Shown here in pieces: positions 29,492 through 31,531 of a DNA stretch of 64,000 bases. Position 1 is the stretch's first letter. The number at the start of each line of letters is the position of its first letter. This DNA comes from Escherichia coli. GTDB lineage: Bacteria; Pseudomonadota; Gammaproteobacteria; Enterobacterales; Enterobacteriaceae. A model generated the notes under the pieces. That model saw only the letters and a program-made list of their open reading frames with translations, did not search any database and had not been told where the DNA came from. The DNA lies in assembly GCF_041248615.1 (NCBI RefSeq), contig NZ_CP158425.1, one strand, 5' to 3'. The position numbers and the translations under genes are program-made.

Positions 29492-30742
29492 TTAAGTCCG
29501 ATACAGTTCGGCGAGCTCATCCAGCATGGGGTTACTCTTATATCCCGGTGCGGCCGTAAAAAGGTTTCGGGAAATCGCCAGCCACTCCATGATTTTGTCC
29601 GTCGCCAGCCAACGTCTGCCAAGTCGCTCGGCTGCGATGGGGACTTTATGCAAGCCAGCGAAGGGATCTACAACAAGATCTCCCGGCTCTGTCAAAAACT
29701 CAATCAGAAACGCTGCAAGCCTGGTAGGAGACGTTGCACCGTGCAGCGGAAAACCGAGCTCGCGGGCAATGGAATGGCAAAATCTCGTATCAGCGCAGCT
29801 ATTGCCGTAAAACAAAGTATTCTTGGGGATCGTTCCTTCTGTTTTATTTCCAAAGGAACCGCTTTTAAGCTGGTACGCCCCATCACCATAAAAGGTCGTG
29901 CGATTTTCACCGCCTGCTGCCTGCAATTTTAGATGCTGGTCTGAATGCGGTTGTAGTACACGTAAGTTGTTTGAACGAACCTTACTCGCATCATTGGTAA
30001 ACCACAGCACAGGCTCATACGATGAGCAGAGCTGCACCCGTTGCTTACATGCCCAGTGCGTTGGCGATGGGGGCTTACTGCGATTCACCCACTGAAGCCT
30101 GTCCATGAGCTCAAGCCCCAGCTTGTCACATAATGCCAGTGTCAGACGCTCCAGATACAGAGAACGTGAAGGCCTACCCCTATTAAAGCTATCTTGAGTG
30201 ATATTCAATGCCACACTTGCGCCCGGTACAAGCTGTTTCACGATCGGTTCGAGGATACGCAGAAGCCAGTCAATATAAGCCTGCTCGCCACGCCCCCCTC
30301 CGTGCCCGTAGTCTCTTGAATTTCGAAGGAGGTAAGGTGGCGAGGTCAGGCAAAGATGAATTTGCTCGGTGATATTGCTGAAGAAGGCATAGGCGTTTCC
30401 AAAAACCGATGCCCCAAGAGAAGTTGAGAAACCGACAACACAGAGCTTTTCCCATGACTCATGCAGGTTTGTTTTCGTCTTAGAGGCGTATCTCCAGACG
30501 CCCCGTTTTTCTGGAACGCGTTCGATGACCCCGGCCTGACGGAGAGTCTGCTGAAACCAGCGAACCTTATGTTTGACGCCGCTGGTTCTGGTTTTATCTG
30601 ACCCAAATTCTTTCAGTTCGTGCAATTCGGCATCCGACATGCCAGTTTTACGCTGCACTTCGCGATAAAGCTCGTCGTTGGTCAACGGCGATTCGGAGGC
30701 AGCGTAGATATGCGCAATTAAGTCCGTATTAATCGTACTCAT
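29492..30742 (-). CDS. DNA methyltransferase, beta-class N6A/N4C type
   Basis: Motif IV TSPPY precedes motif I VVDPFAG; about 110-aa N-terminal extra domain. Confidence 0.6.
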   Translation of the reverse strand: MSTINTDLIAHIYAASESPLTNDELYREVQRKTGMSDAELHELKEFGSDKTRTSGVKHKVRWFQQTLRQAGVIERVPEKRGVWRYASKTKTNLHESWEKLCVVGFSTSLGASVFGNAYAFFSNITEQIHLCLTSPPYLLRNSRDYGHGGGRGEQAYIDWLLRILEPIVKQLVPGASVALNITQDSFNRGRPSRSLYLERLTLALCDKLGLELMDRLQWVNRSKPPSPTHWACKQRVQLCSSYEPVLWFTNDASKVRSNNLRVLQPHSDQHLKLQAAGGENRTTFYGDGAYQLKSGSFGNKTEGTIPKNTLFYGNSCADTRFCHSIARELGFPLHGATSPTRLAAFLIEFLTEPGDLVVDPFAGLHKVPIAAERLGRRWLATDKIMEWLAISRNLFTAAPGYKSNPMLDELAELYRT

Positions 30743-30910
30743 CAGCCATCCTAATGGGGATACAGTTATTATATCGGCCTGATGGTTGGAAGTGAGATTA
30801 CTAAATCAGACCGATCTGGTTTGTTGAAGACTTTGCCAAATCATGCAGCACAGCTGGGCTTGCACAGAGCGAGCCGGGCTCCTTTAGCGGAGACACCTTC
30901 GCAAGTTGGA

Positions 30911-31531
30911 TTAATCAGCCTCAAGATTCTGGAACTCAATGAGCTTTTGCTCACACTCCTCCCTGCCCCACGATCCCTGCCAGTCACAGATGTCCCGGTA
31001 CTTACTTTCCAGCTTATCCATCTGTGCGAGATTAGCTGTTGCGAAGTCTGTCCATATGTCATGCCAGCAAGCGTTGTACGTAACGCCAGCTGGTGGACAA
31101 TACTCCATTGCATCAGCATTAATAATTTCAACGCGAAGATCGGTTGCAAACGAGGCTGCAACGAGGTTAATAACATCCTGTTCTTTTTCGATTACCGTGA
31201 CATGGGTTACATCGTCTTTCTGAAGAATGGCGTGGAGCACCATACCAAGACCAAGACCATTAATGAGCACCCGCCCGGTGGCTCGCTCTATAAAATCCTG
31301 GCAGGTTCGGATCTCCATCGGGGTATTGGACATCACCACATCCCAGCCGTTGGACAAGCGGCGATATCTACCGGGCGGGATAAACTCATCTGTATTACCA
31401 GTACACTCGGCACGAAGGGCGAGGGTCAGCGCCTTATCTGTGGTAATTTCGAAAGTGTCCAGTTTCCAAGTTCCGGACTTGCCGTCTTTAACGGGTAAAT
31501 CAGAAAAGCAGCTCTTCATCGAGGCAACCAA
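30911..31531 (-). CDS. class I SAM-dependent methyltransferase, substrate unknown
   Basis: VLINGLGLGM glycine-rich motif I. Confidence 0.45.
   Translation of the reverse strand: MVASMKSCFSDLPVKDGKSGTWKLDTFEITTDKALTLALRAECTGNTDEFIPPGRYRRLSNGWDVVMSNTPMEIRTCQDFIERATGRVLINGLGLGMVLHAILQKDDVTHVTVIEKEQDVINLVAASFATDLRVEIINADAMEYCPPAGVTYNACWHDIWTDFATANLAQMDKLESKYRDICDWQGSWGREECEQKLIEFQNLEAD

What the first reader, a model, noticed from the sequence alone, without database searches (positions are those of the whole stretch)
29492..31531. Tandem methyltransferases with no adjacent endonuclease
A beta-class DNA methyltransferase with an extra N-terminal domain is followed on the same strand by a second SAM-dependent methyltransferase. 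No restriction enzyme candidate is adjacent. Paired orphan methyltransferases could give broad protective methylation on entry into a new host.
Basis: partly seen in the sequence, partly recalled or inferred. Interest (0 to 1): 0.4.

Follow-up and report, generated by a model that had tools for sequence, protein, structure and literature searches.

The report
Two solitary methyltransferase genes on IncHI2 plasmid
A large IncHI2 resistance plasmid carries, side by side, a stand-alone PvuII-like DNA cytosine methyltransferase fused to a winged-helix domain and a small methyltransferase-fold gene of unknown substrate. This is an ordinary kind of plasmid cargo, and the two genes are not a conserved pair.

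Summary
The window is the last 64 kb of E. coli IncHI2 plasmid p14408_M1.

- **First gene.** 29492-30742 (-) encodes a 416-aa beta-class amino-methyltransferase. It matches PF01555 and has SPPY before DPFAG. It is homologous to the m4C enzyme M.PvuII over the whole catalytic and recognition region (E 2e-39, about 31% identity). It carries an N-terminal Mrr_N-type winged-helix domain.
- **Second gene.** 30911-31519 (-) lies upstream in transcription. It encodes a 202-aa class I methyltransferase-fold protein (pLDDT 94.7) with conserved SAM-binding motifs. It resembles GAMT and spermidine synthase, and its substrate is unknown.
- **No nuclease.** No neighbour matches a nuclease or defence model. 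Natural IS903B and frameshift knock-outs of the methyltransferase leave all neighbours intact, so it is solitary.
- **No conserved pair.** Adjacency is seen only in IncHI2. Relatives in IncC, Klebsiella, Ralstonia and IncHI1-like plasmids and in phages carry one gene without the other.
- **"Broad" and "on entry" are not supported.** The enzyme looks site-specific. The locus lies downstream of the relaxase/coupling-protein operon, with no Frpo-like hairpins or classical leading-region genes.

Best reading: one of several solitary modification genes on this plasmid, pre-methylating plasmid DNA against matching restriction systems. It is a new member of a known kind, of modest interest.

The parts
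29492..30742 (-). Solitary beta-class DNA amino-methyltransferase, 416 aa, probably N4-cytosine. The catalytic and recognition region (about residues 105-392) is homologous to M.PvuII. Motif IV is SPPY at residues 134-137 and motif I is DPFAG at residues 359-363.
   Evidence: PF01555 at 9e-22. M.PvuII 1boo at E 2.3e-39, 31% identity. PADLOC MTase_II at 1.2e-46. Family alignment A2 has S134 and P136 invariant.
30443..30742 (-). N-terminal winged-helix domain of the methyltransferase, residues 1 to about 100, of Mrr_N type. It has an invariant RW.QQ helix.
   Evidence: PF14338 at 7.8e-07, 29.6 bits against a cut-off of 29.5. PF14338 is precomputed in most homologues. AF2 model pLDDT 81 with H-H-beta-H-beta-beta topology. 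Foldseek hits are weak: R.DpnI and Fur winged-helix domains, E 0.01-0.05, TM 0.48-0.57. RefSeq names the IS-severed fragment 'winged helix-turn-helix domain-containing protein'.
30743..30910 (-). 168-bp spacer between the two genes. It has no sigma-70 match and no terminator-like hairpin on the minus strand. The AGGATGG ribosome-binding site of the methyltransferase lies 5 nt before its ATG. Co-transcription is possible but not shown.
30911..31519 (-). Small stand-alone class I methyltransferase-fold gene, 202 aa from the ATG at 31519. The ORF extends to a TTG at 31531. Motifs: MSNTPxE, VLINGLGLG, VTVIE, (H/N)ADA, WHDIW. It resembles GAMT and spermidine synthase. Its substrate is unknown.

Best explanation
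These are two independent, stand-alone modification-type genes that happen to sit next to each other in the IncHI2 backbone.

Gene 1 is a solitary, site-specific DNA methyltransferase of the M.PvuII lineage, most likely making N4-methylcytosine. It carries an added winged-helix DNA-binding domain. While the plasmid resides in a cell, the enzyme methylates its short target sequence on plasmid (and host) DNA. The transferred strand therefore arrives already methylated. Once the complementary strand is made, the duplex is hemimethylated and is protected from restriction systems of matching specificity in the recipient. It is also protected from post-segregational attack by such systems.

Gene 2 is a small SAM-dependent N-methyltransferase-like enzyme of a family spread over plasmids and phages. 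It acts on its own, on an unidentified substrate.

Shown: the domain content, the homology, the absence of a cognate nuclease, the dispensability of gene 1, and the non-conservation of the pairing.
Inferred: the m4C chemistry, the sequence specificity, the donor-side protective role, and any activity of gene 2.
For: - Beta-class methyltransferase with full-length homology to M.PvuII, including the recognition region. The Ser of SPPY is invariant in 27 diverse homologues. Ser at this position is typical of N4-cytosine enzymes (established knowledge).
- The family is a backbone gene of large, mostly conjugative plasmids: 2252 PLSDB plasmids in IncHI2, IncC, Klebsiella and Pseudomonas megaplasmids, and all records whose typing was inspected here carry a MOBH relaxase. 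It always sits in runs of small co-oriented genes, with different neighbours each time.
- No nuclease is detectable in the flanks. No R.PvuII-like sequence is found in the window, though that query was recalled from memory.
- Natural IS and frameshift knock-outs leave the neighbours intact.
- The same window holds three more methyltransferase genes and an orphan DndC-like gene, none with a nuclease. This fits a plasmid strategy of carrying many solitary modification genes.
- Orphan methyltransferases protecting conjugative elements are an established concept (PMC11541004, PMC7736820). Protection has also been reported for the IncA/C dcm genes (PMC6555945).
- Gene 2 has a confident methyltransferase fold with conserved SAM motifs. 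It has no conserved partner in 49 non-redundant viral loci.
Against: - No methylome or biochemical data for either protein were found in the searched library.
- At 31% identity to M.PvuII neither the target sequence nor the modified base can be taken as proven.
- In the one IncA/C SMRT study no new clean m4C motif appeared after plasmid entry (PMC6555945). That plasmid family carries a 50%-identical homologue. The data there are noisy, and the study did not consider this gene.
- A TnSeq screen in IncC did not flag the homologue as needed to cross a type I restriction barrier (PMC7498323).
- The knock-outs also show that the gene is dispensable for plasmid survival.
- For gene 2 nothing links it to DNA beyond its presence on mobile elements and its neighbourhood of replication and recombination genes.
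Confidence: 0.6

Rival explanations
1. Establishment module. Both genes are expressed early in the recipient, from the incoming strand or just after second-strand synthesis. Together they give rapid, broad protective modification. This would be analogous to M.EcoGIX of pESBL.
For: - Both genes lie in a 24-kb run of co-oriented minus-strand genes (14169-38163) that includes hok and HigB toxins, a DndC-like gene and many small unknown ORFs.
- The minus-strand orientation points toward the relaxase/coupling-protein operon at the left end of the window. That is the orientation needed for transcription from the transferred strand if transfer ran through this side (inference from geometry).
- Leading-region methyltransferases are documented (PMC11541004, PMC7736820).
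- In phages the small gene sits in early, replication and recombination modules.
Against: - The locus is about 29 kb downstream of the coupling-protein gene, on the relaxase side. That side normally enters last (PMC11541004).
- No ArdA, KlcA, PsiB or SSB genes were found among 52 further CDS.
- No long Frpo-like inverted repeats occur between 27.7 and 39 kb.
- The pairing is not conserved.
- Gene 1 resembles a 6-bp-specific enzyme rather than a promiscuous single-strand enzyme, and it has an Mrr_N domain in place of the architecture of M.EcoGIX.
Confidence: 0.2
2. Epigenetic or regulatory role. The winged-helix domain makes the methyltransferase an autoregulated or locus-targeted enzyme. Its methylation would tune plasmid gene expression, replication or conjugation rather than protect against restriction.
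For: - The winged-helix domain is conserved, with invariant residues, across the family.
- Winged-helix folds dominate transcription factors (Fur-type hits).
- Some type II methyltransferases use N-terminal helix-turn-helix regions to repress their own genes (established knowledge, for example M.SsoII).
- The gene is dispensable.
Against: - No operator-like repeat was found upstream.
- No experimental evidence was found.
- The Pfam assignment is to the Mrr_N family of restriction-enzyme DNA-binding domains, not to a regulator family.
Confidence: 0.12
3. The small protein is a polyamine aminopropyltransferase (spermidine synthase), as some automatic annotations say. It would then be metabolic cargo unrelated to DNA.
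For: - The best sequence-profile and Foldseek matches are spermidine synthases.
- Some records name it 'Polyamine aminopropyltransferase'.
Against: - Scores are far below the equivalog cut-offs: 24 bits against 472.
- The protein is 200 aa against about 280-300.
- The GGGDG loop Asp that selects decarboxylated SAM is replaced by Leu in NGLGLG (the role of that Asp is established knowledge).
- Its distribution in phage early regions does not fit a polyamine enzyme.
Confidence: 0.05

Closest known systems
M.PvuII (PDB 1BOO), the beta-class N4-cytosine methyltransferase of the PvuII type II restriction-modification system
   Same: Homologous over the whole catalytic and recognition region (E 2.3e-39, 31% identity). 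It has the same motif order and the same S-P-P-aromatic motif IV.
   Different: There is no R.PvuII or C.PvuII partner. It has an extra 100-aa Mrr_N-type winged-helix domain. It is carried as a backbone gene of the large MOBH plasmids inspected here. Its target sequence is unknown.
M.EcoGIX and M.BceJIII, plasmid-borne methyltransferases acting on single strands during establishment (PMC7736820)
   Same: Both are plasmid-borne solitary amino-methyltransferases with a proposed role in helping the plasmid past restriction.
   Different: Those enzymes make promiscuous m6A at SAY on single strands and lie in a leading region. Here the enzyme is PvuII-like with Ser in motif IV, has a different N-terminal domain, and lies on the relaxase side of the plasmid. 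Single-strand activity is untested.
IncA/C dcm1, dcm2 and dcm3 solitary methylases (PMC6555945; PMC7498323)
   Same: They are multiple solitary methyltransferases on the backbone of a MOBH plasmid, proposed to carry the plasmid across restriction barriers. IncC plasmids also carry a 50%-identical homologue of gene 1 (WP_000098294.1).
   Different: dcm1 and dcm2 are C5-cytosine enzymes (PF00145) and dcm3 is PF06044. The homologue of gene 1 was not among the genes studied.
Guanidinoacetate N-methyltransferase and the spermidine-synthase-like branch of class I methyltransferases
   Different: Identity is only 12-18% and the protein is much shorter. It lacks the spermidine-synthase GGGDG signature. 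It is found on plasmids and in phages. No substrate is known.

Membership tests
Beta-class N4/N6 DNA amino-methyltransferases (Pfam N6_N4_Mtase, PF01555) | Score above the Pfam gathering threshold | tested here: met
   78.5 bits against a cut-off of 26.7, residues 128-390.
Beta-class N4/N6 DNA amino-methyltransferases (Pfam N6_N4_Mtase, PF01555) | Circularly permuted motif order: catalytic motif IV, (S/D)PP(Y/F), lies N-terminal to SAM-binding motif I | tested here: met
   SPPY at residues 134-137 and DPFAG at residues 359-363. S134 and P136 are invariant in 27 homologues.
Beta-class N4/N6 DNA amino-methyltransferases (Pfam N6_N4_Mtase, PF01555) | Methyl transfer to an exocyclic amine of DNA, with identity of the base (m4C or m6A) and of the target sequence | not testable with these tools
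   Only inferred, from Ser in motif IV and homology to M.PvuII and other N4-cytosine enzymes.
Type II restriction-modification system | A cognate restriction endonuclease encoded next to the methyltransferase and dependent on it | tested here: not met
   No nuclease or defence HMM hit in eight flanking ORFs. Neighbours are not conserved across five contexts. Natural knock-outs of the methyltransferase leave the neighbours intact.
Mrr_N winged-helix domain (PF14338) | Pfam score at or above the gathering threshold, and a winged-helix fold | tested here: met
   29.6 bits against 29.5, which is marginal. PF14338 is precomputed for most homologues. The AF2 model has winged-helix topology, but the Foldseek matches are weak (E 0.013-0.1).
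Class I SAM-dependent methyltransferases (small protein) | Rossmann-like fold with a glycine-rich loop after strand 1 and an acidic residue after strand 2 | tested here: met
Class I SAM-dependent methyltransferases (small protein) | Membership of a curated Pfam or NCBIfam methyltransferase family above its threshold | tested here: not met
   The window protein's best scores are 18.6 bits against 23.5 and 15.7 against 24. 28 of 42 homologues reach Methyltransf_25 at E no higher than 0.01. Only the PHROG family matches strongly.
Polyamine aminopropyltransferases (spermidine synthase) | Equivalog-level score, and a GGGDG loop with the Asp that selects decarboxylated SAM | tested here: not met
   24.1 bits against a cut-off of 472. 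The loop is NGLGLG, with Leu at the Asp position.
Leading-region anti-defence island (PMC11541004) | Location in the first-transferred region next to oriT, on the side opposite the relaxase | tested here: inconclusive
   The locus is about 29 kb downstream of traD, on the relaxase-operon side. The IncHI2 nick site and transfer polarity could not be established here.
Leading-region anti-defence island (PMC11541004) | Frpo-type single-strand promoters and companion genes (ssb, psiB, ardA and similar) | tested here: not met
   No long inverted repeats between 27.7 and 39 kb. No such families among 52 further CDS.
Conserved two-gene methyltransferase module | Adjacency of the two genes conserved among distant relatives | tested here: not met
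   The genes are adjacent only in IncHI2. They are 4.6 kb apart in Aeromonas, and only one is present in IncHI1-like, Klebsiella, IncC and Ralstonia plasmids and in phages.

The most novel reading that the evidence does not exclude
Two readings remain open.

(a) The Mrr_N/DpnI-like winged helix fused to the PvuII-like enzyme acts as a 'reader' of already modified or hemimethylated DNA. The protein would then be a bacterial reader-writer (maintenance-type) methyltransferase that quickly restores full methylation on newly replicated or newly transferred plasmid DNA.

(b) The small family, which resembles GAMT and spermidine synthase and is spread over plasmids and phages with no curated family, is a new mobile-element enzyme. 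It might modify DNA, nucleotides or a host defence component.
Probability: 0.12. Interest if true: 0.65.

Novelty: new member of a known kind. Interest (0 to 1): 0.3.

Why it matters
IncHI2 plasmids are major carriers of mcr-1 and other multidrug resistance genes. About 1000 sequenced plasmids carry this exact locus. The methyltransferase family also sits on IncC, Klebsiella and Pseudomonas megaplasmids. If its target site were mapped, it would show which restriction barriers these plasmids are pre-armed against. It would also add an uncharacterised m4C enzyme to plasmid methylome interpretation. The small methyltransferase-fold family has more than 1800 relatives on plasmids and phages and no known substrate. 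It is a reasonable target for functional study. Neither gene changes current concepts: solitary methyltransferases on conjugative plasmids are well documented.

Tried and rejected
- **Cognate nuclease among neighbours.** Pfam, NCBIfam, PHROGs and PADLOC scans of the flanking ORFs found nothing. A tblastn of R.PvuII against the window also found nothing, but that sequence was recalled from memory, so this is only a weak check.
- **A conserved 73-aa gene downstream of the methyltransferase.** The 73-aa ORFs in the Aeromonas and Ralstonia loci are unrelated to each other and to the window. Rejected.
- **A conserved two-gene module.** Rejected after inspecting 10 plasmid contexts and 66 viral loci.
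- **Spermidine synthase identity for the small protein.** Rejected on score, length and the missing GGGDG Asp.
- **Frpo-like single-strand promoters.** None found. Sigma-70 matches are fewer than chance, 1 against 5.5.
- **Literature on a methylome or specificity for this enzyme.** Four searches found nothing specific. The IncA/C methylase paper studied other genes.
- **IncHI oriT polarity from the literature.** Not resolved.
- **CAGCTG site statistics.** There are 39 sites against 15 expected. This probably reflects the common CAG-CTG codon pair and says nothing about specificity.
- **Fold match of the N-terminal domain.** It shows only a generic winged helix with weak E-values. It does not prove a methyl-DNA reader.
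Full report
**Source of the window.** The window is identical to positions 174074-238073 of NZ_LT599829.1. That record is E. coli NRZ14408 plasmid p14408_M1, a 238-kb conjugative IncHI2A plasmid with a MOBH relaxase. The 3-kb stretch around the finding is present at 99% identity or more in 596 PLSDB plasmids and at 90-95% in 406 more. The hosts are mainly Escherichia, Salmonella and Enterobacter. It is therefore part of the IncHI2 backbone.

**The observation.** Two ORFs lie at the stated coordinates, both on the minus strand. RefSeq annotates 29492-30742 as 'site-specific DNA-methyltransferase' and 30911-31519 as 'hypothetical protein'. In the direction of transcription the small gene comes first and the methyltransferase second, with a 168-bp spacer between them. 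The spacer has no sigma-70 consensus match and no terminator-like hairpin on that strand. Co-transcription is possible but not shown.

**Gene 1.**
- The 416-aa protein matches Pfam N6_N4_Mtase (78.5 bits against a cut-off of 26.7) and, at the threshold, Mrr_N (29.6 against 29.5).
- The catalytic motif SPPY (residues 134-137) precedes the SAM motif DPFAG (residues 359-363). This is the beta-class order.
- The best solved relative is the N4-cytosine methyltransferase M.PvuII, at E 2.3e-39 over residues 105-392. That span is the whole catalytic and target-recognition region. Identity is 31%.
- Other solved hits include N4-cytosine enzymes and CcrM.
- In 27 homologues of 46-86% identity the Ser and the second Pro of SPPY are invariant. 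Ser at this position is typical of N4-cytosine enzymes and Asp of N6-adenine enzymes (established knowledge). m4C is therefore the likelier product, but it is not shown.
- The N-terminal 100 residues fold as a winged helix in an AF2 model (pLDDT 81). The Foldseek matches are weak: the winged-helix domains of R.DpnI, Fur regulators and cullins, at E 0.013-0.1 and TM 0.47-0.57. Only 'winged-helix DNA-binding fold' can be claimed from this.

**Gene 2.**
- The true start is probably the ATG at 31519. Homologues begin MKSCF, and RefSeq uses this start.
- The protein is below all Pfam and NCBIfam cut-offs. It matches phrog_15480 'methyltransferase' at 3.5e-34.
- It has more than 1800 relatives of about 200 aa.
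- An AF2 model from 42 homologues is confident (pLDDT 94.7).
- Foldseek and a family profile put spermidine synthases first: TM about 0.45 and E 8.6e-06.
- The invariant residues mark a glycine loop (NGLGLG), Glu115 after strand 2 and Asp158 with Trp160 after strand 4; Asp140 beside invariant Ala141 after strand 3 is also aligned but is not listed as conserved.
- The Asp of the spermidine-synthase GGGDG loop aligns with Leu. Together with scores of 24 bits against a cut-off of 472, this argues against the 'polyamine aminopropyltransferase' label that some records carry.
- The Asp after strand 4 is the position of the catalytic base in GAMT and spermidine synthases. An N-directed methyl transfer is therefore the best guess.
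- The substrate is unknown. Nothing shows it is DNA.

**Is there a nuclease?**
- The eight flanking ORFs (48-263 aa) have no hit in Pfam, NCBIfam, PHROGs or PADLOC.
- The nearest nuclease-like gene is an HNH protein 6.7 kb away.
- Homologues of gene 1 at 45-52% identity were inspected on Aeromonas, Ralstonia, Klebsiella and IncC plasmids. Their neighbours differ in every case, and the small downstream ORFs are unrelated to each other. Homologues also occur on Pseudomonas megaplasmids, whose flanks were not examined.
- In plasmid p17S-208 an IS903B element splits gene 1 while all neighbours are intact. In pIncHI2-MU3 the gene is frameshifted. A dependent endonuclease would not tolerate this. 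The methyltransferase is solitary.

**Is it a pair?**
- The small gene occurs without gene 1 within 8 kb in the IncHI1-like, Klebsiella and other plasmid contigs examined.
- Gene 1 occurs without the small gene in Ralstonia, Klebsiella and IncC plasmids.
- In an Aeromonas plasmid the two lie 4.6 kb apart, with parA and parB between them.
- The small family is also found in 31 GenBank phages of Gram-negative and Gram-positive hosts and in 66 IMG/VR loci.
- Among 49 non-redundant viral loci no neighbouring family recurs in more than three. The neighbours are replication and recombination genes such as DnaB, primase, ERF, RecT and SSB.
- The two genes are therefore independent, and their adjacency is an IncHI2 feature.

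**Context and timing.**
- The window starts inside the coupling-protein gene traD (plus strand). The finding lies about 29 kb downstream, inside a 24-kb run of minus-strand genes.
- The relaxase side usually enters the recipient last (PMC11541004). I could not establish the IncHI2 nick site or transfer polarity.
- The window has no ArdA, KlcA, PsiB or SSB genes. It has no long hairpins of the Frpo type near the locus.
- Early expression on entry is therefore unsupported, though not excluded. The minus-strand orientation points toward the transfer operon, which would suit transcription from the transferred strand if transfer ran this way.
- A donor-side mechanism needs no early expression. DNA methylated in the donor arrives methylated on the transferred strand and becomes a hemimethylated, restriction-resistant duplex. 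This step is inferred from general knowledge of type II systems.

**Wider picture.** The same 64 kb holds three further methyltransferase genes and an orphan 794-aa DndC-like protein, all without nucleases:
- a 253-aa N6_Mtase/MTS protein at 41474-42235;
- an N6_Mtase-DUF4942 gene split by an IS3 element, at 54842-55840 and 57221-57847;
- a Dam-family gene at 59628-60440;
- the DndC-like gene at 23924-26308, matching PADLOC DndC at 4e-38.

Any breadth of protection would come from this collection, not from the two genes in the finding.

**Comparison with known systems.**
- The concept of solitary methyltransferases helping conjugative plasmids past restriction is established (PMC11541004). M.EcoGIX and M.BceJIII are the best-studied examples. 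They are promiscuous single-strand m6A enzymes (PMC7736820).
- IncA/C plasmids carry three studied solitary methylases (PMC6555945, PMC7498323). They also carry an unstudied 50%-identical homologue of gene 1.
- I found no paper on the specificity or role of this enzyme or of the small family.

**Verdict.** This is a new member of a known kind and of modest interest. The parts worth follow-up are the conserved winged-helix fusion and the uncharacterised small methyltransferase family.

Noticed in passing
window 23924-26308 (-): A 794-aa orphan DndC-like / PAPS-reductase protein. It matches PADLOC DndC at 4e-38 and TIGR03183 at 6e-34 (below the cut-off), with a weak BrxP hit. No dndA, dndB, dndD or dndE was seen nearby. 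It might be a solitary DNA-modification or anti-defence gene.
   Followed up: partly
window 41474-42235 (+), 54842-55840 (-) with 57221-57847 (-), 59628-60440 (+): Three further methyltransferase genes without nucleases. One is a 253-aa N6_Mtase/MTS protein. One is an N6_Mtase plus DUF4942 gene interrupted by an IS3 element at 55968-57181. One is a Dam-family (D12) enzyme. Counting the two genes of the finding, the window holds five methyltransferase-type genes.
   Followed up: partly
window 35746-38136 (-), 43689-46109 (+), 50384-52840 (-); repHI2 at 48188-49276 (-): Three genes for proteins of about 800 aa, annotated Ig-like in the record, surround the RepHI2 replication gene. A related plasmid locus (L013) shows the same arrangement next to a copy of the small methyltransferase gene; there the homologues carry DUF4165/Big_3 domains.
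   Followed up: no
window 9162-10346 (-), 58095-59258 (-), 62469-63524 (-): Three paralogue-like proteins of 350-394 aa, each with only a ParB HTH domain hit. Their function is unknown.
   Followed up: no
window 14169-14288 (-), 34495-34791 (-): A Hok-family toxin gene and a HigB-like toxin gene lie in the same co-oriented minus-strand array. The gene just upstream of higB (34841-35311) is probably one of the two window proteins with a DnaJ-type CXXCXGXG zinc-finger hit, and no typical antitoxin was recognised.
   Followed up: no
window, whole: CAGCTG, the PvuII site, occurs 39 times against 15.3 +/- 4.1 in dinucleotide shuffles. This is probably an effect of the frequent CAG-CTG codon pair rather than anything to do with the methyltransferase.
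   Followed up: partly
window 28800-32600: Only one sigma-70 consensus match against 5.5 +/- 2.1 expected from shuffles. The gene run around the finding has few recognisable promoters.
   Followed up: no
window 33305-34450 (-): RefSeq names this CDS 'flavin reductase family protein'. Pfam, NCBIfam, PHROGs and PADLOC found no family for the 393-aa ORF.
   Followed up: no
L011 6263-7030 and 15071-16609 (Klebsiella plasmid contig): In Klebsiella plasmids the small methyltransferase homologue sits two genes from a dATP/dGTP pyrophosphohydrolase (PF04447). It is about 6.5 kb from a CRISPR_assoc (PF08798) protein followed by a DEAD/Helicase_C_2 helicase.
   Followed up: no
window 15503-15784 (-): PLSDB's resistance-gene prediction labels this 93-aa hypothetical protein 'Brucella suis mprF' at 100% identity. 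This looks like a database artefact.
   Followed up: no
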